A stretch of 64,000 nt of DNA, from the IMG/VR virus record IMGVR_UViG_3300045988_152430; one strand, 5' to 3'. How positions within the stretch are numbered: the first letter of the stretch is position 1; the number at the start of each line of letters is the position of its first letter. This DNA comes from a virus (Duplodnaviria; Heunggongvirae; Uroviricota; Caudoviricetes). Of the stretch, positions 38,610 to 64,000 are shown in pieces. Made by a program: the position numbers and the translations under genes. The notes below the pieces were generated by a model that saw only the letters and a program-made list of their open reading frames with translations, searched no databases and was not told the DNA's origin.

Positions 38610-39206
38610 ATGGCTGTGATTCCAATGTCGTACTCCCCGGGTACTGTCGCTCGTCGATTTTCGATCCTGGACGGAGTTACCATCCAGGGTGTGCTTTACC
38701 AGGTTATATGGGATTCCAAAACCCCATTTGCAGCTGTAATAGAGGCTGCGCCTTCTGTTATCGATGGTGATATGCGCCATAAGGTTGTCGCTACTCTTGA
38801 ACTTCAACGTCGCCCGCAGCTTGAAGGCGTACTGGTAAGGAAGTTCTGGGAGGATAGCGATGTTGCCCAGATTGAAGGTATCGTGGTTGATGGAACCGTC
38901 CGGGATGTCGGTTTAGCTACTTTTGTTTACGAAACCGTAGCCTCAAAAGCTGGTGTTGTTTTGCTCAGTGATAATGAGCAATACGAAGGTGGAAAAGCTC
39001 TTTGGCAACACATCGCCCGTCGCTCTTCCGAGCTAAAAGTGTTTATCCTCGACACCGATGCCGCTCAGTATTACCCGTTTGACGGCGAACGTGTTTGCTA
39101 TGACGGGGTAAGTATTCCTGAATCCGAGATATGGAGTGAACACCCAGATCGAAGTAAGCATGGGGTTGTTCTGGTCGCTGAATCCATAATTGGAAAGGCG
39201 GCATAG
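38610..39206 (+). CDS. Hypothetical protein (198 aa from ATG at 38610)
   Basis: Track ORF 38574..39206; the ATG at 38610 has an AAGGGGGA SD; isolated between a terminator and the repL region. Confidence 0.5.
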   Translation: MAVIPMSYSPGTVARRFSILDGVTIQGVLYQVIWDSKTPFAAVIEAAPSVIDGDMRHKVVATLELQRRPQLEGVLVRKFWEDSDVAQIEGIVVDGTVRDVGLATFVYETVASKAGVVLLSDNEQYEGGKALWQHIARRSSELKVFILDTDAAQYYPFDGERVCYDGVSIPESEIWSEHPDRSKHGVVLVAESIIGKAA

Positions 39207-39388
39207 CAGTAAAAAATTCCTTGCTCCTAAAAAGGGGAGAGGGCTAATCTACGTATGCTAAGCATAGATATGGCCTCAGATTAATGTTAAGCGTCTTGCA
39301 GGACGCGTAATGTTATCTGGGGCTTTCTTCTATCTGCTTGTCGGGTAATGCCTGAAGCAGATAGCCTCAAGCACCCGCAGCGATTGTA

Positions 39389-43184: not shown

Positions 43185-43300
43185 TACCGCGTGAGGTTCC
43201 AATCTCAATGGCGGTAGCACTGACTGGGTTGGAACTACCGGCGCAAAAGGGAACCGGCCTGCCTTTCGGCAGCCCAGCCAGCACTACCATTGATCTCGGA
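43185..43300 (-). ncRNA. c4: Probable c4-type antisense repressor RNA region (approximate)
   Basis: ORF-free leader between the upstream operator and icd with several perfect stems (gctaccgc..gcggtagc, cggtag..ctaccg, ctgcc-tttc-ggcag); placement from P1 immI organisation; exact ends not determined. Confidence 0.3.
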
Positions 43301-43486
43301 GCTATGTGCTACGTATGGTTGTGCGATGGCATGACACAAAAAAAGACGCTTTTGGCGTCTATGTCGCCTTTTGCATTATCCGGGGTTCCAATCCCGGCAT
43401 CCGTTTTACTAAGATGCCTGTTTAGGATAAACCGAAAATGCATTAGCACGCAAGCAAGTTAATGTAGCATATGAAGCTAAAAAAAT

Positions 43487-54050: not shown

Positions 54051-54485
54051 ATGTCTGACGTCTCAACAAACCTCTATAAGAGTCAGTTGTTGGACTATTA
54101 CTATCAGCGGCGCGCTGAATCGTCCATTAACAAAGGCTCTCGATTTTTAATCAGCAAGGCCGTTTTCGGTACCAGTTCACTGGTTACCAAAAATGAAGAT
54201 GGTACTTATGACATTGGAGAACTGCCAAAGGCTTTCGAGTTGGCAGAACTGACCAGTCAATTTTGCACCATAAACCTCGTCCCAACCTACTCTGGTGGGA
54301 TAATTACTGTCCGAATGGACCTTGATCAAAGCCAGTTGCAGGAAGGGAGAAACTACCCATTCAACACTCTGGTTGTTCTAGATAACGAGAACAAGCCAAT
54401 CGCCATTATTTGTGTCCAGGAAGACTCGCTGTATGTGGGCAAAACATATACCGCAGTTATGGCCATAAACACGACTACAGCATAA
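54051..54485 (+). CDS. Tail-fibre operon first gene (144 aa), possibly fibre-associated structural protein
   Basis: ORF in track with SD; precedes the tail-fibre gene. Confidence 0.5.
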
Positions 54486-54496
54486 GGATATGCTTG

Positions 54497-57400
54497 ATGA
54501 ATGACGTTACAGTTGTTACATCAGTTACTTACCCATCGCCTGAGTCACTGGCTCTGGTGGCTGATGTGCAATACCACGAACCATATCTGTCAGCCGCGCT
54601 AAACCGAAAATTCAGGGGAATTGTTGACCCTGGATTTTATGCTGGTTTCCTGCCGAAGCCTGGTGGTGGGATGAACCTGTTAATCACCTCAGTGGATGGT
54701 GATAAAACTGCTGGCGCTGCGTCAGTGGATATTGGTGAATTCTACCAGGTAACTATTCAGCACCGTAAGGATATTTCTCTTGCACTTAGTGCAGGCAAGA
54801 AATATGCAATTGTGCTGAAGGGAAGATACCTCCTTGGAGAGGATACCTATCAGGTTAATACCGCGTCACATATTCATGCGGCTGAATTTGTTGCCAGAAC
54901 CTATACCGATTCATATCAGTTAGGAGATGGGGAGCTGCTTGTTTGTACGGTGAATATCCCTGCTGGCGTATCAGCCATTACCCAGGAGATGATTGATACA
55001 TCCGAGCGTATTAACCGCACGATCGGCATTGATATTTCAGACTCTGTAACCAGTAGCAGAAGTGATGTTGCTGCAAGTTCGCTGGCAGTTAAAAAAGCCT
55101 ACGATCTGGCGAAAAGCAAGTATACGGCGCAGGATGCAAGCACAACGCAAAAGGGATTAGTTCAGCTCAGTAGCGAAACTAACAGCGACAGCGAAACAAT
55201 GGCGGCTACCCCTAAAGCCATTAAGTCTGTAAAAGATCTTGCTGATACCAAAGCGCCAATAGAAAGCCCGAGTCTGACAGGAACGCCAACCGCGCCGACG
55301 GCAGCGCAAGGTACAAATAGCACGCAGATCGCAAATACAGCCTTTGTTAAGGCAGCTATAACGGCACTTATCAACGGTGCACCTGGCACACTGGATACGC
55401 TTAAAGAAATAGCTGCTGCGATCAATAACGACCCGAATTTCAGCACAACTATCAACAATGCTCTGGCTCTTAAAGCTCCTTTAGCAAGTCCTGCATTAAC
55501 GGGAATACCTACTGCGCCAACCGCTGCACAGGGTACGAATAACACGCAGATTGCTACGACCGCTTATGTAAGAGCTGCCATATCCGCATTGGTTGGTTCA
55601 TCACCAGAAGCTCTTGATACCCTGAATGAGCTTGCCGCAGCACTTGGTAATGACCCGAACTTTGCGACAACAATGACAAATGCGCTGGCAGGCAAACAGC
55701 CTCTGGATGCAACTTTAACCGCGCTTGCGGGTCTTGCTACAGGCGCAAATAAATTGCCGTACTTTACCGGTACAGACACTGTTTCTCAGACTGACTTAAC
55801 GTCAGTCGGTCGCGATATTCTGGCCAAAACAAGCGTCCTTGCTGTTATCCAATACCTTGGTTTAAGAGAACTCGGCACAAGCGGTGAAAAGATCCCCCTG
55901 TTGAGCACGGCTAACACATGGAGTGCACGCCAGACTTTTAACGGCGGGATCACCGGGGCGCTGACAGGGAACGCCGATACCGCGACGAAGTTGAAAACAG
56001 CACGGAAGATTAACAACGTTTCATTTGATGGTTCGGCAGACATAACGCTGACACCTGAGAACCTTGGCGTCACCAGTCTGACGTTTGAGAAAAACAACGG
56101 TGAAATGCCTATTGATGCTGACCTAAATACTTTCGGTCCCGTTGAGGCTTATCTTGGTGTCTGGTCCAAAGCAACATCCACCAACGCAACACTGGAGAAA
56201 AATTTCCCGGAAGATAATGCTGTCGGTGTGCTTGAGGTATTTGCTGCCGGAAATTTTGCAGGTACGCAACGCTTTACCACGAGAGACGGCAATGTATACA
56301 TACGCAGACTCGCCAATAAGTGGAATGGCTCTGATGGTCCGTGGGGCATATGGCGTCACACTCAATCAGCTACCCGCCCTTTGAGTACGACTATAGACCT
56401 GAATACGCTTGGAGCCGCCGAACATCTTGGTTTATGGCGTAACAGTAGCTCGGCTATAGCTTCATATGAACGCAATTATCCAGAGGAAGGCGGCTTTGCT
56501 CAGGGGATGCTTGAGATCCTCGAAGGCGGGAATTATGGAAGAACGCAACGTTATACCACTCGCCGCGGAAATATGTATGTCCGCTGCCTTGCGGCAAGCT
56601 GGGATGCATCAAATCCGCAGTGGGAACCGTGGTTAAAAGTCGGTCATCAGTCAGAGAGTCGTTATTACGACGGGGATTTGAATGATGTGACTTCACCAGG
56701 TATTTACAGCGTTACAGGTAAAGCGACCAACGGTCCAATACTGGACGGAAACGGCGTGACAGTCCTCGGTATTCTGGAGGTGTTGAGGCGCTTTGATGGT
56801 GTTAACGTATGGCAGCGTTATACAACTGCCGGAACAGGTGCAACCCTTAAAGGTCGCACGTTTGAGCGCGTCTATACCGGTAGCTCGTGGAGCGAATGGC
56901 GGGAAGTCTACACCTCGTATTCACTTCCCCTGAATCTGGGTATCGGCGGTGCTGTGGCAAAGCTCACCAGCCTGGACTGGCAGACCTACGACTTTGTTCC
57001 GGGCAGTCTGATAACCGTTCGGCTTGATAATATGACCAATATTCCCGACGGTATGGACTGGGGCGTTATTGATGGCAACCTGATAAACATCGCTGTTGGC
57101 CCAAGTGATGATACCGGTACGGGACGCTCAATGCATGTATGGCGCAGCACTGTAAGTAAAGCCAACTACCGCTTTTTTATGGTGCGTATTTCAGGAAATC
57201 CGGGAAGCCGCACGATCACAGCAAGACGTGTGCCAATTATCGACGAAGCTCAGACATGGGGCGCGAAACAGACATTCAGTGCTGGCCTTTCTGGTGAACT
57301 GTCCGGCAATGCTGCGACAGCAACAAAGCTGAAAACAGCCCGTAAAATTAATAACGTTTCGTTTGATGGTTCCGGGGATATTGAGGTCCTTCCTGTTGGT

Positions 57401-58042
57401 GTTCCGCTGCCGTGGCCATCAGATACTGTGCCGTCTGGTTACGCCCTGATGCAGGGACAGACTTTTGACAAATCTGCATACCCGAAACTTGCAGCCGCTT
57501 ATCCGTCAGGCGTGATCCCGGATATGCGTGGCTGGACAATCAAGGGCAAACCCGCCAGTGGTCGGGACGTATTGTCTCTGGAACAGGATGGCATTAAATC
57601 GCACACCCACAGCGCCAGCGCATCCAATACGGATTTGGGTACGAAAACCACATCTTCGTTTGATTACGGTACTAAATCAACGAATAACACAGGTGCACAT
57701 ACCCACAATGTATCTGGTACTGCAAATAGTGCTGGCGCACATACTCATACCGTGCCATTAAGGAGACCAAACAGTGGCGGTATGAATTTCGACTGGCTGG
57801 ATGGTGCATCAAGTGGCACGGTGGTGGGGAATGGAACTGTGCCTTCTTCTGGCGCACATACCCACTCAGTATCAGGCACCGCTACAAGTGCTGGGGCACA
57901 TGCACACACTGTTGGTATTGGCGCTCATACGCACTCTGTTGCGATTGGTTCACATGGACATACCATCACCGTTAACGCTGCTGGCAACGCGGAAAACACC
58001 GTTAAAAACATCGCATTTAATTATATTGTGAGGCTTGCATAA
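54497..58042 (+). CDS. Long tail fibre protein (1181 aa from ATG at 54497)
   Basis: Repeated SP(S/A)LTG(T/I)[11 protein letters not shown](S/N)TQIA units, Ser/Thr/Gly-rich shaft, C-terminal tandem His-x-His array (AHTHSV...[15 protein letters not shown]) like T-even distal fibre tips; AAGGA SD before 54497. Confidence 0.8.
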
Positions 58043-58659
58043 TGGCATTCAGAATGAGTGAACAATCACGTACTGTAAAAATTTATAACCTGCTGGCCGG
58101 AACTAATGAGTTTATTGGTGAAGGTGACGCATATATTCCACCTCATACAGGGCTGCCAGCTAATTCTACAGATATCGCCCCACCGGAAATTCCTGCTGGC
58201 TTTGTGGCAGTTTTTAACAGTGAAAATGAATCGTGGAATATTGTTGAAGACCATCGTGGTAAAACGGTCTATGACGTGGCATCGGGGGACGCGTTGTTTA
58301 TTTCTGAACCCGGACCGCTACCAGAGAATGTCACCTGGTTGTCGCCAGCAGGGGAATATCAGAAGTGGGACGGCGTATCCTGGGTGAAGGATGAGGAAGC
58401 AGAAAAACTGTTTCGGATACGGGAAGCGGAAGAGAAAAAGGCAAGGTTGATCCAGGAGGCAACAGATAACATCGCAATTCTGCAGGATGCAGTTAATCTT
58501 GAAATAGCAACAAACGAGGAAAATTCACAACTGGATTCCTGGAGAAAATACAGAGTATTAGTGAGTAGAATTGACACCAGTACAGCTCCGGATATCGTAT
58601 GGCCAGAGCTGATGAATCAGGGTTATGTACGGGAGGACGAGCAGATAACTTCAGACTGA
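58042..58659 (+). CDS. Tail fibre assembly chaperone (Tfa/U family)
   Basis: TAATG stop/start coupling with the fibre gene; [14 protein letters not shown] and C-terminal VWPELMNQ resemble Tfa family patterns. Confidence 0.7.
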
Positions 58660-59186
58660 AATTTAGTGATGAATGTTGAATCATCAGGAATATCATGCAA
58701 TACCAATGCATGAGCACCTATTGTGACATTGTTTCCTATACGCACTTTGCCACCAAGAATGGTGGCATTACAACCAATGGTCACATTATGTCCTATAACA
58801 ATATCCATATCATTAAAATCACCACGTAGCCCAATAGTTACCCCTGGTTTTATTGAACAATTTTCACCGATTGTTACTTTGTGACCGATAACAACACTGT
58901 TGAGATAAGAAATATCAAAGCCTTTCCCTATATTTACAGTTAAAGGGACTGTTACATTATATTTATCAAGAATTAAACGTTCTATTTTCCCCGCAATCTT
59001 CCGACAGTATCCGCCTTTATCAAAAAGGTATTTGGCCATGCGCCACCAAAATAAATAACGAACTCTTCTATGTTTTATTGCGCGAACAATTGCCTTTCGC
59101 CAGGAGAAAGGACGCTCGCTACCGATTACTTCATAGTGAATACAGTCTTTAAGTTCATTAATATTCATGTCTCTATTATTCAGCAT
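58623..59186 (-). CDS. Hexapeptide-repeat (left-handed beta-helix) acetyltransferase
   Basis: Tandem hexapeptides [21 protein letters not shown]...[34 protein letters not shown]; convergent with and overlapping the 3' end of the Tfa gene; AT-rich own upstream region. Confidence 0.7.
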
Positions 59187-59189
59187 AAT

Positions 59190-60180
59190 ATAATAATGTG
59201 CCCAATTATTATAATGATTTTAATGGGTTATTTCTACTGATTATCCAGTGTGTCTGGCGGTTTTCGGTATTATCTGCCGGAACCATGCCTCATCCAGCGG
59301 GTATTTGCTGCCTGGGTTATCCGGTTTTACGGTCACTCCCTCAGGCCTCCGATTCTGGTCACGGCGGGTTTGTTATTTTCCAATGCGTCGGATGACCACT
59401 GCCGCAACTTCTGCACCATTTTTTGGGAGCGGGATTCCACTCCTACGCAACCTGCGCTTTTTGTGCAGCCTGTTTTGCGTGCTGTCCCGGATTTTTGAGT
59501 TTCATTCTGCCTCCATGAGCCTATCAGAGACGACACCAATCCACTTAAGCACGATGCCAAGACCATCAAGGAGCTGCGTCAGAGGCCCAGCACAATGTTC
59601 TGCTTGATCGGCATAGGGGGGGAGCACAAGGCTGCGCCCCTGCCACACCACCCGGCATGCAGGTCCGTACCGGGCTTCCCCGGCTTCTGACGCAATGTTC
59701 TGTCAAGAGTCATATCTTTTGGCTTTCCTTCTCGTTCGGCCCTTCGTCGGAGTCCTGACTACTACGGCCTCTGCTGACTTCTCGCTCCGTCTTACGACGT
59801 TGCCCTTTCAGGCATGAGGCGAGAACTCCCCAGGTAAGAACGCGATCCTTCCCCGCACAACCGTCGGATCTACGCGACTTTGTCACGAAAGCTTCGCAGT
59901 GATGTGCCTGCTCGCCTTGCTCCATCGCGCCTCATATCCGATTCTTGTTCATCGGCTCACGGGTTCATTCCGTGCTTCCTCCCCACGCCCGGTCGCCCTC
60001 ACGCAGTTGCACTTCCTTTCGCTCGCTGTGGTCAGCTCGCGGGAGGGCTTTCACCTCCAAGATCGCGCCCATGCTGGGCGCACACATCCTCCACGCTCTA
60101 AAGGACGTGGAGGATGTCAAGTAACATGACCGGTTGAGAAGTTACTTTGCATACCATTACCTCCTGACAACGTAGGAGGG
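59190..60180. other. About 1 kb ORF-poor, GC-rich, hairpin-dense segment of unknown nature (candidate structured RNA or decayed element)
   Basis: No ORF over 120 aa in any frame; runs of G/C, a perfect 11-bp stem (catcctccacg..cgtggaggatg at about 60086-60117) and other stems; sits between the acetyltransferase and the holin operon. Confidence 0.4.
60137..60157 (+). promoter_or_regulatory. Late-promoter-type element (AGAAGTTACT-N5-TACCAT)
   Basis: Motif and spacing as in the other late operons, about 30 nt upstream of the holin-like gene. Confidence 0.45.
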
Positions 60181-60185
60181 AACTT

Positions 60186-60515
60186 GTGCTTGACACACAG
60201 GAATTAGCTCCAGTTGCTATTGCGCTCCTGCTTTCAGTAATTGGTGGGATAGGCACGTTCCTGATGGATGTCCGAGACGGTCGCCAGTCTGGCAATTTGT
60301 TGGGATTGGTTACGGAGATCTTTGTTGCAGTGACAGCTGGCGCGGTGGCGTACCTATTGGGGCAACACAAGGGCTGGGAGTTATCAATTACGTACTTAAT
60401 GGTAACGATAGCCAGCAATAACGGTCATGAGGTGATTTCAGGGATGAAACGAGTGAATATCGATAGCATTCTGAATGTTCTTACAAGTTTGGTGAAAAAG
60501 GGAGGCGGGAAATGA
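60186..60515 (+). CDS. lydA: Holin-like membrane protein (LydA-like)
   Basis: 109 aa, GTG start with GGAGGG SD; TM helices (PVAIALLLSVIGGIGTFLM, IFVAVTAGAVAYLLG); first gene of the operon that continues into the DarA-like gene, as recalled for P1. Confidence 0.55.
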   Translation: MLDTQELAPVAIALLLSVIGGIGTFLMDVRDGRQSGNLLGLVTEIFVAVTAGAVAYLLGQHKGWELSITYLMVTIASNNGHEVISGMKRVNIDSILNVLTSLVKKGGGK

Positions 60516-63465: not shown

Positions 63466-63827
63466 CACTATCAGCTATTGAGTTAATGGATCTCAGCGAT
63501 AAGTTGGATGCTCTGATGTCCAAAGCGGCGACCGCGAGTGGCATGGAGTTGCTGGATATCAGCGATGAAATTGACCAGATCATGCAACAGATGGGGTACG
63601 GCGCGTCCGGCGGTGGTAGTGGCGAGGAAAAACAACCTTCGGAACATGATGGTGTGCCAAAACTGGTTGCTGATTTCCTGGCTGATAAATTCGTCGATCA
63701 GAGCACCGATGCATTTATCGGTACCTTGCAGGATTTGAGTCAATATGTTGGCACATACATCGACCTGGACCAGGTTAAACAGCACACGGCGGCATGGATA
63801 GCCGCCAACATTAAAGAGGCAGCGTGA
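63462..63827 (+). CDS. Small acidic protein downstream of the DarA-like gene (possibly DdrA)
   Basis: 121 aa, overlapping start/stop with the preceding gene. Confidence 0.5.
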   Translation: MTLSAIELMDLSDKLDALMSKAATASGMELLDISDEIDQIMQQMGYGASGGGSGEEKQPSEHDGVPKLVADFLADKFVDQSTDAFIGTLQDLSQYVGTYIDLDQVKQHTAAWIAANIKEAA

Positions 63828-64000
63828 CATCCTCCACGCCCTTCGGGGTGTGGATTCCTGCTATGTTCAGGCTGTCGCCTGAATCATTTCGGAGGGTTCC
63901 TGCTTCAACGGGCGGTCTGACTGCACCATCCCTCCACAGGCAAGCACGGCGTGCCCCGCCGCTAAAATGTTACGAGCGCCGTTTACATCGGCGTTCGCTG

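What the first reader, a model, noticed from the sequence alone, without database searches (positions are those of the whole stretch)
59190..60180. About 1 kb of GC-rich, hairpin-dense DNA with no credible ORF
Between the acetyltransferase and the holin promoter there is about 1 kb in which no frame has an ORF over 120 aa and the short ORFs have no coding character, yet the sequence is GC-rich and full of stable stems (for example a perfect 11-bp stem at about 60086-60117, and G7/C5 runs near 59615-59640). Phage genomes rarely keep 1 kb of non-coding DNA. It could be a structured non-coding RNA, a decayed recombinase/invertible-segment remnant, or a recombination hotspot.
Basis: seen in the sequence. 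Interest (0 to 1): 0.6.

Follow-up and report, generated by a model that had tools for sequence, protein, structure and literature searches.

The report
Decayed ORF-less group II intron
The "non-coding, hairpin-rich" kilobase in this P1-like phage-plasmid is debris from mobile elements: a 477-base group II intron that has lost its reverse-transcriptase gene, sitting next to a transposon-end hairpin and a broken fragment of a tail tape-measure gene. It is not a new RNA gene or an invertase remnant.

Summary
Window 59190-60180 has no ORF over 119 aa, is 54.5% GC against 47.6% for the window, and contains a perfect 12-bp hairpin.

On the minus strand it is a mosaic of five parts:
- The P1 late promoter LPdar and lydA leader (60126-60180).
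- A palindromic hairpin homologous to the right-end hairpin of IS200/IS605 (TnpB) elements (60084-60120).
- A 477-nt class C (IIC) group II intron (60083 to 59607, GUGCG...GAU). Its reverse-transcriptase ORF, about 1.35 kb, was deleted across a GCCCGG microhomology.
- A frameshifted internal fragment of a P2-like tape-measure gene (59606 to about 59245).
- The AT-rich promoter region of an acetyltransferase gene.

A sister plasmid carries the exact empty site. Full-length relatives 96-97% identical, with an intact ltrA, sit after IS right-end hairpins in E. coli.

The deletion removed the base of domain 5. All ORF-less copies break three D5 pairs that 58 relatives keep, and the window copy also lost a conserved 7-nt D1 motif. 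No Cin remnant exists.

This is most likely an inert, vertically inherited fossil, present in about 35 P1-like plasmids. The by-product is more interesting: this IIC sublineage appears to home specifically into IS200/IS605 right ends.

The parts
60126..60180 (+). P1-homologous late promoter LPdar and lydA leader. This is the backbone, not part of the insert.
   Evidence: It is 100% identical to P1 31189-31243, which is annotated as LPdar -22/-10. lydA starts at 60186.
60084..60120 (-). Solitary palindromic hairpin (TTGACATCCTCCACG-loop-CGTGGAGGATGT) homologous to the right-end (RE) hairpin of IS200/IS605-family (tnpA/tnpB) elements. It serves as the 5' exon and DNA target of the intron. Its last 5 nt, GATGT, are IBS1.
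   Evidence: The stem is a perfect 12 bp, z -6.4. The loop and 3' arm match the RE hairpins that follow tnpB in L008/L009/L003 and at window 63824-63860. In the empty-site plasmid L005 the palindrome has 21 bp per arm, dG -24.3, z -10.8.
59607..60083 (-). ORF-less (deltaORF) class C / IIC group II intron, 477 nt, 5' GUGCG ... GAU 3'.
   Evidence: Boundaries come from the exact empty site in L005 and from relatives. Fold z is -2.9.
59838..60002 (-). Intron domain 1 core (Rfam group-II-D1D4-3). It includes the EBS1 loop ACAUC at 59905-59901, and the site of a 7-nt deletion at about 59882/59883.
   Evidence: One search gives 103.3 bits, E 2e-21. EBS1-IBS1 covariation across 36 relatives is. The deleted GTCAAGT lies in a GGUCAAG motif whose CAA columns are >=98% conserved in 64 relatives.
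59739..59820 (-). A further 5'-half ribozyme segment matching Rfam group-II-D1D4-1. By its position downstream of D1 it is probably D2-D3, which is inferred.
   Evidence: One search gives 46.8 bits against a gathering score of 35. The intact L008 scores the same.
59671..59713 (-). Remnant of the intron-encoded protein: ATG at 59713 plus about 14 codons (MTLDRTLRQKPGKPG). It ends at the deletion junction, the GCCCGG microhomology at 59675-59670.
   Evidence: It aligns to the first residues of L008 LtrA. The 5' and 3' blastn pieces overlap by 6 nt.
59647..59678 (-). Domain 5, damaged. The first two bases of the helix, including the first base of the CGC catalytic triad, were replaced by AA at the deletion junction. 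The upper helix has a G-to-A change (A.C mismatch) and, in this copy only, a C-to-U change (G.U pair).
   Evidence: The D5 structure is established by covariation on alignment A1. Pairs 14-43, 15-42 and 23-32 are broken only in the two deltaORF rows, out of 60 sequences.
59610..59644 (-). Domain 6 with the bulged branch-point A at 59614, 8 nt from the 3' end. This copy has extra Cs in the C run and one mismatch in the distal stem.
   Evidence: pair 49-84 covaries, GC:33 / CG:25.
59245..59606 (-). 3' exon: a frameshifted internal fragment of a P2-like phage tail tape-measure gene, corresponding to aa about 713-849 of a 1022-aa protein.
   Evidence: It is 73-74% nucleotide identical to tape-measure genes of E. 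coli prophages. tblastn gives E 7e-15, split over two frames with stops. It is collinear with the tail-fibre homology at 56184-57369.
59190..59244 (-). AT-rich (22% GC) upstream region of the acetyltransferase gene, with a sigma-70-like promoter match at 59236-59208.
   Evidence: TAGAAA-17-TATAAT, 10 of 12 matches; GC.
58623..59186 (-). Hexapeptide-repeat acetyltransferase gene. This is context: cargo of the same imported cassette.
   Evidence: Pfam Hexapep E 1e-12. It is annotated as serine acetyltransferase in identical plasmids.

Best explanation
The stretch is not a phage-encoded function. It is a stack of three mobile-DNA relics, read on the minus strand.

1. Shown: a subgroup of P1-like phage-plasmids lacks the cin / invertible C-segment / lydC block of P1. 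In that slot it carries a fixed tail-fibre cassette (distal S, a different U, an acetyltransferase).

2. Inferred from collinearity: the cassette came from a P2-like prophage and dragged along a piece of the neighbouring tape-measure gene. That piece has since decayed by frameshifts.

3. Shown by homology: at the junction lies a solitary palindromic hairpin derived from the right end of an IS200/IS605-family element.

4. Shown by an exact empty-site allele, GUGCG/AU ends and a 5-bp EBS1-IBS1 match: a class C (IIC) group II intron retrohomed immediately 3' of that hairpin. Its lineage recognises a DNA stem-loop plus the last few exon bases.

5. Shown: a single later deletion between two GCCCGG repeats removed about 1.35 kb. 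This took all but 14 codons of the reverse transcriptase/maturase and the first two bases of catalytic domain 5.

6. Inferred: the resulting 477-nt ORF-less intron can no longer move and is probably crippled as a ribozyme. It has been inherited vertically with the plasmid and continues to decay (extra D1 and D6 lesions in this copy).

The GC richness and the dense stems are simply the residual ribozyme fold.
For: Identity
- Rfam group II D1-D4 models match at 103 and 47 bits on the minus strand.
- Window 60084-59670 aligns to the 5' part of full-length introns. Window 59675-59604 aligns to the 70 nt right after the ltrA stop codon.
- The closest full-length copies (L008, L009) are 96-97% identical, 1,831-1,832 nt long and carry ltrA. 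ltrA is intact in L008.

Class C
- The L008 protein has RVT_1 and GIIM domains and no endonuclease domain.
- Its best solved relative is the GsI-IIC RT, E 8e-129. The IIB and IIA reverse transcriptases score E-42 and E-38.
- Of about 60 relatives, most lie directly after GC hairpin plus T-run terminators.

Insertion event
- Plasmid L005 has hairpin-GGATGT|CAAGCAG with no intron, in the same context.
- The EBS1 loop ACAUC complements the exon end GAUGU. Across 36 relatives the loop tracks the exon end: 4.0 consecutive pairs against 1.05 +/- 0.23 when shuffled.

Decay
- D5 and D6 are defined by covariation, with 99.2% of cells paired. Only the ORF-less rows break pairs 14-43, 15-42 and 23-32.
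- A 7-nt loss hits a motif conserved in 64 relatives. There are further indels in D6, and the copies differ from one another by indels.

No mobility
- All 35 plasmid copies and 34 E. coli genome copies are at this one site with the same deletion.
- A right-end site with the matching exon end (GATGT|C) at 63824-63860 is unoccupied. So is a second one at 30532-30546, which has a mismatched last exon base.
- There is no intron-encoded protein in the window.
- Only 2 of 5,426 E. coli genomes hold a full-length relative.

Tape-measure fragment.

No Cin remnant.
Against: - Loss of function is inferred, not measured. The triad change CGC to AGC recreates the consensus triad of most group II introns, and A.G or A.C mismatches can be tolerated in some ribozymes, so residual splicing is possible.
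- Most copies (the L011 type) still keep the GGUCAAG motif.
- Divergence among copies is similar in the intron (96.7-96.9%) and the flanking pseudogene (97.4%). This fits neutrality but cannot prove it with so few differences.
- Transcription of the minus strand is unknown. No sigma-70-like site was found upstream of the intron.
- The origin of the long perfect palindrome at the empty site is not explained.
- The order of events (IS insertion in the tape-measure gene, import into P1, intron homing) is reconstructed from few genomes.
Confidence: 0.8

Rival explanations
1. The ORF-less intron is still a working splicing element, and possibly a mobile one, served in trans by the maturase/RT of a related full-length intron in the host. 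This is what has been proposed for most bacterial ORF-less introns.
For: All six domains are still recognisable. The 5' GUGCG, 3' AU, EBS1-IBS1 pairing and branch-point A are intact. The fold is more stable than all shuffles. Full-length relatives 96-97% identical exist in E. coli. The review literature says that bacterial ORF-less introns nearly always co-reside with related introns (PMC4424553).
Against: Three D5 pairs that are invariant in 58 relatives are broken, including the first triad base. This copy also lacks a conserved D1 motif. Every copy found is at the same site. The matching target at 63824-63860 in the same plasmid is empty. Only 2 of 5,426 complete E. coli genomes carry a full-length relative, and the median is one copy per positive genome.
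Confidence: 0.13
2. The structured RNA or DNA has been co-opted by the phage-plasmid. It could act as an insulator or terminator between the divergent late lysis operon and the acetyltransferase gene, as a long structured 5' leader, or as a replication or recombination signal.
For: The same arrangement persists in about 35 plasmids from several continents and hosts. The hairpin is very stable. Phage genomes usually purge useless DNA.
Against: A sister lineage lacks the intron with the same flanking genes. The acetyltransferase has its own promoter-like site downstream of the whole stretch. The hairpin has no T run on either strand. Copies differ by indels inside conserved ribozyme motifs. P1-like plasmids tolerate many IS and cargo insertions, and two more IS right ends lie in this window.
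Confidence: 0.04
3. Hairpin plus intron arrived together by ordinary recombination from an IS-intron composite rather than by retrohoming in situ. On this reading the intron-less plasmid L005 is a secondary precise loss.
For: The same hairpin 3' arm directly precedes the intron in IS contexts elsewhere. Phage-plasmids recombine freely with plasmids.
Against: L005 shares both outer junctions (P1/hairpin and hairpin/tape-measure) and differs only by the exact absence of GUGCG...GAU. It is also the more diverged lineage, 92% in the flank, as expected for an older, never-invaded allele. Precise DNA loss of a group II intron is rare (established knowledge). The 5' arm of the P1-type hairpin differs from the IS-context arm.
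Confidence: 0.08
4. This is a decayed serine invertase or invertible C-segment remnant.
For: In P1 this slot holds U', Sv', cin and lydC.
Against: tblastn of Cin, LydC, U' and Sv' against the region gives nothing better than E about 1-3. There is no Cin hit anywhere in the window at E<=1e-3. Every base of the region is accounted for by other homologies.
Confidence: 0.01

Closest known systems
Bacterial class C (IIC) group II introns, e.g. B.h.I1, GsI-IIC, O. iheyensis intron
   Same: The ribozyme is small, about 480 nt without the ORF, with GUGCG/AU ends. Intact relatives have a CGC catalytic triad. The IEP has RT and X/maturase domains and no endonuclease domain, and its best solved relative is the GsI-IIC RT. 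The intron is inserted directly 3' of a DNA stem-loop with a short IBS1.
   Different: The window copy has no IEP and a damaged D5. Its target hairpin is not an intrinsic terminator (no T run) but a transposon-end-like palindrome. Rfam's D5/D6 model (RF00029) does not detect this lineage even when it is intact.
IIC-attC introns (e.g. S.ma.I2), the IIC sublineage that homes into integron attC hairpins
   Same: This is also a IIC sublineage that has switched from terminators to the single-strand hairpin of another mobile element. EBS1 is retuned to the new exon end: ACAUC here, against A-rich loops in the terminator-homing relatives.
   Different: The target is the right-end hairpin of IS200/IS605 (tnpA/tnpB) elements, cut 3 nt before the element's end (...GGATGT|CAA), not attC. 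No integron is present. The 2015 review lists only homing sites, terminators and attC as known targets (PMC4424553).
Bacterial ORF-less group II introns (Simon et al. 2008 as summarised in PMC4424553; phage examples in Merk et al. 2025, PMC12350094)
   Same: The ribozyme has no IEP and is derived from an IEP-encoding ancestor. Closely related full-length copies exist in the same species.
   Different: Here the deletion endpoints are known to the base and cut into D5. Related IEPs are rare in hosts: 2 of 5,426 E. coli genomes. No copy of this intron is present in 50,697 GenBank phage records. It is seen only in P1-like elements deposited as plasmids.
IStrons (group I intron fused to IS605/IS607 transposons)
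   Same: The full-length relatives are self-splicing-type introns living inside IS200/IS605-family elements next to the TnpB guide-RNA region.
   Different: The ribozyme is group II, not group I. The intron is a separate retroelement inserted at the right end, not a fusion that supplies the transposon's ends. In the window only the right-end hairpin remains, with no tnpA or tnpB.

Membership tests
Group II intron (ribozyme) | Conserved termini 5' GUGYG and 3' AY, defined against an intron-less allele | tested here: met
   The intron runs GUGCG...GAU. The exact empty site in L005 reads GGATGT|CAAGCAG.
Group II intron (ribozyme) | D1-D4 sequence and structure match to curated covariance models | tested here: met
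   RF02001 scores 103.3 bits (gathering score 32) and RF01998 scores 46.8 bits (gathering score 35), both on the minus strand.
Group II intron (ribozyme) | Domain 5: helix with catalytic triad (AGC/CGC, G.U wobble) and a 2-nt bulge | tested here: inconclusive
   The lineage has it: 13 pairs, 99% of cells paired, compensatory changes at pair 19-38 and an invariant G.U. In the window copy 3 of the 13 pairs are broken and the triad reads AGC with an unpaired A. RF00029 gives no hit, even for the intact L008.
Group II intron (ribozyme) | Domain 6 with a bulged branch-point A 7-8 nt from the 3' splice site | tested here: met
   The structure is GGCA-GGGG...CCCC-UA-UGCC-GAU. Pair 49-84 covaries (GC 33 / CG 25). 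The bulged A is at 59614. The distal stem carries an insertion and a mismatch.
Group II intron (ribozyme) | EBS1-IBS1 pairing between a D1 loop and the end of the 5' exon | tested here: met
   ACAUC (59905-59901) pairs with GAUGU. Across 36 relatives there are 4.0 consecutive pairs against 1.05 +/- 0.23 for shuffled loops.
Group II intron (ribozyme) | Self-splicing or lariat formation | not testable with these tools
   This needs in vitro splicing or RNA-seq/RT-PCR.
Class C / IIC | Insertion immediately 3' of a DNA stem-loop (terminator or attC-type motif) | tested here: met
   The 12-bp hairpin ends at the splice site. Relatives sit after terminators or right-end hairpins.
Class C / IIC | IEP of class C: RT plus X domains, no En domain, clusters with IIC RTs | tested here: met
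   This was tested on the full-length relative L008: RVT_1 plus GIIM, 456 aa, with GsI-IIC RT as the best PDB match at E 8e-129. The window copy itself keeps only 14 codons.
Class C / IIC | No EBS2-IBS2; 3' exon read by EBS3-IBS3 | not tested
   The first 3' exon base is C in all right-end-homing copies. EBS3 was not located.
ORF-less group II intron served in trans | No IEP within the intron | tested here: met
   About 1.35 kb is missing relative to L008. tblastn of the IEP finds only the N-terminal remnant.
ORF-less group II intron served in trans | A related IEP-encoding intron in the same genome | tested here: not met
   There is none in the 64-kb window. Among 5,426 E. coli genomes, 34 have the ORF-less copy, only 2 have a full-length relative, and the median is one place per positive genome. 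The chromosome of this element's own host is not available.
IIC-attC introns | Target is an integron attC site | tested here: not met
   The hairpin is homologous to IS200/IS605 right-end hairpins downstream of tnpB. No integron context is present.
IS200/IS605 right end | Subterminal hairpin followed by a conserved end, next to tnpB/tnpA | tested here: inconclusive
   The loop, 3' arm and TCAA end match right ends in L008/L009 and at window 63824-63860. At 60084-60120 there is no tnpA or tnpB and the 5' arm differs, so this is a solitary relic.
Cin/Gin-type invertase or C-segment remnant | Detectable homology to Cin, cix sites, U' or Sv' | tested here: not met
   There is no hit at E<=1 in the region and no Cin in the window. 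P1 DNA homology stops at 60126.

The most novel reading that the evidence does not exclude
The fossil in this window marks a previously undescribed target specificity of class C group II introns. This sublineage spans E. coli, Methylotenera, Nitrospirota, Verrucomicrobia and Burkholderiales (IEP identity 79-86% to the E. coli copy). It homes into the right-end hairpin of IS200/IS605 (TnpB) transposons, 3 nt before the element's end. That site lies between the omega-RNA scaffold and its guide, so in intact elements intron splicing would be needed to make a functional TnpB guide RNA. This would be a group II counterpart of the IStron/guide-RNA conflict. It would add a third hairpin target class for IIC introns, besides terminators and attC.
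Probability: 0.45. Interest if true: 0.65.

Novelty: new member of a known kind. Interest (0 to 1): 0.4.

Why it matters
For the phage-plasmid itself it matters little. The kilobase is inherited junk that marks where the invertible host-range switch of P1 was swapped for a fixed tail-fibre cassette.

It is useful in three other ways.

1. It is a cleanly dated, base-resolved example of how a bacterial group II intron loses its ORF. The cause was a microhomology deletion that also clipped D5. The intron then decays, which supports the view that non-mobile derivatives do not last long in bacteria (PMC4424553).

2. It shows a blind spot in survey pipelines. Rfam's D5/D6 model misses this whole lineage, and P1-like elements filed as plasmids escape phage surveys. 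Group II introns in temperate phage-plasmids are therefore under-counted relative to Merk et al. 2025.

3. Tracing its relatives exposes an apparent IIC sublineage specialised on IS200/IS605 right ends. If confirmed, this would link two single-strand-DNA-dependent mobile elements and the TnpB guide RNA.

Tried and rejected
- Rfam at E<=10 on 59560-59760 for D5/D6 returned only chance miRNA hits. The intact relative is also missed, so D5/D6 had to be established by covariation instead.
- tblastn of a distant LtrA (L004) against the region found nothing meaningful. This is because the ORF is deleted, not decayed.
- Megablast and blastn against 50,697 phage records found only the 55-nt LPdar match, and nothing for the intron or the flank.
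- ON470608, an 'intergenic' phage intron in Merk et al., looked like a possible P1 relative. It is a 46-kb siphovirus and is unrelated.
- A sigma-70/terminator scan found no convincing promoter upstream of the intron on the minus strand and no canonical terminator at the hairpin.
- Literature searches for group II introns at IS605/TnpB ends or in P1-like phage-plasmids returned only unrelated mentions.
- Three primary papers on IIC targeting and ORF-less introns are not in the held library.
- The Cin/U'/Sv'/LydC remnant hypothesis was tested and rejected.
- I first misread the 70-nt match to Sinorhizobium and Ralstonia replicons as a possible coding N-terminus. It is D5-D6.
Full report
**Observation.** The window is a P1-like phage-plasmid. 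It carries S (54410-58042), a tail-fibre assembly gene (58042-58659), a hexapeptide acetyltransferase on the minus strand (58623-59186), then about 1 kb, then lydA (60186), lydB, hdf and darA.
- In 59190-60180 the longest ORF in any frame is 119 aa.
- GC is 54.5% for the finding and 60.4% for 59607-60083, against 47.6% for the window.
- The + strand is C- and T-rich.
- The hairpin is a perfect 12-bp stem, 60084-60095 with 60106-60117, z -6.4.

The description is confirmed.

**What replaced what.** In P1 the slot between U and the late promoter LPdar holds U', Sv', cin and lydC.
- Here P1 homology stops at 60126; only the 55-nt LPdar/lydA leader matches.
- tblastn with Cin, LydC, U' and Sv' finds nothing in the region and no Cin in the whole window.
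- The identical 991 nt occur in 35 of 553 matching PLSDB plasmids, nearly all E. coli P1-like replicons, at 97-100% identity.
- They occur in 34 of 5,426 complete E. coli genomes.
- They occur in none of 50,697 phage records.

**The core is a group II intron on the minus strand.** Rfam gives group-II-D1D4-3 at 59838-60002 (103.3 bits, E 2e-21) and group-II-D1D4-1 at 59739-59820 (46.8 bits).
- blastn against full-length introns on an Enterobacter plasmid (L004) and an E. coli plasmid (L003) splits the window into two pieces.
- Window 60084 to 59670 matches the intron's 5' part.
- Window 59675 to 59604 matches the 70 nt that follow the ltrA stop codon.
- The two pieces overlap by GCCCGG.
- The ORF is therefore deleted, not decayed. 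Only ATG plus about 14 codons remain at 59713-59671.
- The closest full-length copies are chromosomal in E. coli (L008, L009). They are 96-97% identical and 1,831-1,832 nt long. ltrA is intact in L008 and split in L009.

**Boundaries and empty site.** Plasmid NZ_CP033848.1 (L005) has the same genes on both sides but reads ...CGTGGAGGATGT|CAAGCAGAAC... with nothing in between.
- The window reads ...GGATGT|GTGCGCCC...CTATGCCGAT|CAAGCAG.
- The intron is therefore 60083 to 59607, 477 nt, GUGCG...GAU.
- L005 is the more diverged allele, 92% in the flank. This fits a never-invaded lineage.

**Class.** The L008 protein has RVT_1 and GIIM domains and no endonuclease domain.
- Its best solved relative by far is the GsI-IIC RT, E 8e-129. 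The IIB and IIA enzymes score E-42 and E-38.
- Of 80 loci encoding relatives (60-86% identity), I could place 5' ends for 62. Most lie directly after a GC hairpin plus T run, which is the class C hallmark (PMC4424553).
- The D1 loop GC-ACAUCA-CUGC (59905-59901) complements the last five exon bases, GAUGU.
- Across 36 relatives this loop tracks the exon end (for example AAAAA with T runs, UGAAA with UUUCA). The mean is 4.0 consecutive pairs against 1.05 +/- 0.23 for shuffled loops.

**D5 and D6.** Rfam's D5/D6 model finds nothing here, and nothing in the intact L008 either. I therefore aligned 60 3' ends (A1) and counted pairs for a hand-drawn D5/D6 structure.
- 99.2% of cells are paired, against 41-55% when the partners are slid.
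- Compensatory changes occur at D5 pair 19-38 (CG 49, UA 8, GC 2) and D6 pair 49-84 (GC 33, CG 25).
- The triad G.U is invariant.
- Intact D5 reads A-CCGCCCGG-UGCG-GACC-CGCA-UG-CCGGGUGG-U, with a CGC triad.

**Damage.** The deletion junction replaced the first two D5 bases, CC, by AA.
- This unpairs 14-43 and 15-42; position 15 is the first triad base.
- All ORF-less copies also carry G to A at pair 23-32.
- These three pairs are broken in the two ORF-less rows and in none of the 58 other sequences.
- The window copy additionally has a G.U in the upper helix, extra Cs and a mismatch in D6, and a 7-nt loss (GTCAAGT, at about 59882/59883).
- That loss lies inside a GGUCAAG motif whose CAA columns are >=98% conserved in 64 relatives.
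- Other copies differ by different indels at the same places: 476-483 nt.

This pattern looks like relaxed constraint.

**The hairpin.** In L008, L009 and L003 the intron lies directly after the hairpin that follows tnpB (insQ; Pfam HTH_OrfB_IS605 plus Cas12f1-like_TNB) of an IS200/IS605 element. The junction reads ...CGTGGAGGATGT|intron|CAA, and flanks diverge after CAA.
- The window's solitary hairpin shares the loop, 3' arm and TCAA end.
- The same IS right end, unoccupied, lies at 63824-63860 (minus strand, CGTGGAGGATGT|CAC), with tnpB running off the window.
- Another right end lies at 30440-30546 (GGATGC|CAA).
- The closest non-E. coli relatives (L016, L018, L019, L022, L023, L028, L029) also sit at ...GAGGATGT. 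All but L022, where a tandem intron copy follows, are followed by CAA. L017 sits at a variant site, ...GGTGAGTGTT|...|CAC, with a matching EBS1.
- TnpB domains are found upstream in L019, L023 and L017, with only a weak, sub-threshold OrfB_IS605 trace in L029.

The intron therefore landed here because the junction carried a right-end hairpin that this sublineage targets.

**The rest of the kilobase.** Window 59606 to about 59245 is 73-74% identical to an internal part of tape-measure genes of P2-like E. coli prophages.
- tblastn aligns aa 713-849 over two frames with stops.
- The same prophage (L006) matches the distal S gene (56184-57369, 81%) in collinear order and orientation.
- The fibre cassette was therefore probably imported from such a prophage, and the tape-measure piece is a scar. 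This is inferred.
- The last 55 nt are the AT-rich upstream region of the acetyltransferase, with a promoter-like site at 59236-59208.

**Function.** I conclude that the region is an inert mosaic.
- Arguments for inertness: the D5/D1/D6 lesions; one site only in all carriers; an empty matching target nearby; no IEP in the window; only 2 of 5,426 E. coli genomes with a full-length relative.
- What I cannot exclude: residual splicing, since the triad AGC is the common consensus elsewhere; and unknown minus-strand transcription.

**Novelty.** ORF-less bacterial group II introns are known but rare (PMC4424553). Phage group II introns were catalogued only recently, and six of twenty were ORF-less (PMC12350094). 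This is a new member of that kind, in P1-like phage-plasmids. The targeting of IS200/IS605 right ends was not found in the held literature, which lists only homing sites, terminators and attC.

Noticed in passing
L008:3455-5340, L009, L003, L016-L019, L022, L023, L028, L029 (and window 60084-60120): A sublineage of class C group II introns sits at ...G(G/T)GAGGATGT|intron|CAA. This is 3 nt inside the right end of IS200/IS605 (tnpB) elements, in E. coli and in distant phyla. Its slightly more distant relatives sit after ordinary terminators and have A-rich EBS1 loops. The insertion point lies between the TnpB omega-RNA scaffold (weak RAGATH-18-like hit at L008 3387-3430) and the guide. No description was found in the held literature.
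   Followed up: partly
window 63824-64000 (minus strand): This is the right end of an IS200/IS605-family element whose tnpB (annotated insQ in the identical plasmid) runs off the window end. Its hairpin ends CGTGGAGGATGT|CAC, the same exon end (GATGT|C) as the occupied site, yet it is unoccupied.
   Followed up: partly
window 29261-30546 (+): A second IS200/IS605-like right end lies at 30440-30546 (...ACGTGGAGGATGC|CAA), preceded by two adjacent ORFs (29261-30121 and 30122-30448) that may be a split tnpB. The ORFs were not checked against Pfam.
   Followed up: no
L005:3462-3512 (empty site), window 60084-60120: In the intron-less plasmid the target is a near-perfect palindrome of 21 bp per arm (TGCTTGACATCCTCCACGTCC/GGGCGTGGAGGATGTCAAGCA, dG -24.3 kcal/mol, z -10.8). 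This is far longer than the 6-9 bp stems of the IS right ends it resembles. Its 5' arm overlaps the last P1-like bases (GTTGCTT). How it arose is unexplained; snap-back synthesis or microhomology joining are possibilities.
   Followed up: partly
window 54410-59186: The Cin-invertible host-range switch of P1 is absent: there is no cin, U' or Sv' in the window. The distal part of S (56184-57369) is 81% identical to a tail-fibre gene of a P2-like prophage. A hexapeptide acetyltransferase gene converges on the fibre-assembly gene and overlaps it by 37 nt.
   Followed up: partly
L004:5334-, L022:2657-, L092: Some relatives are followed immediately by a second intron copy, with the 3' exon starting GTGCGCCCAG or GCGTGCGCC. 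These are tandem arrays of IIC introns.
   Followed up: no
window 59607-59690 and L008:5250-5340: Rfam RF00029 (group II D5/D6) gives no hit at E<=10 for this lineage, even for intact copies. Surveys that require a D5/D6 hit would therefore miss it.
   Followed up: yes
window 19867-22093, 39202-39376, 43207-43417: Other Rfam gathering-level hits are three tRNA genes, a sok antitoxin RNA, the C4 antisense RNA and an isrK-like RNA. These are ordinary features of P1-type elements.
   Followed up: no
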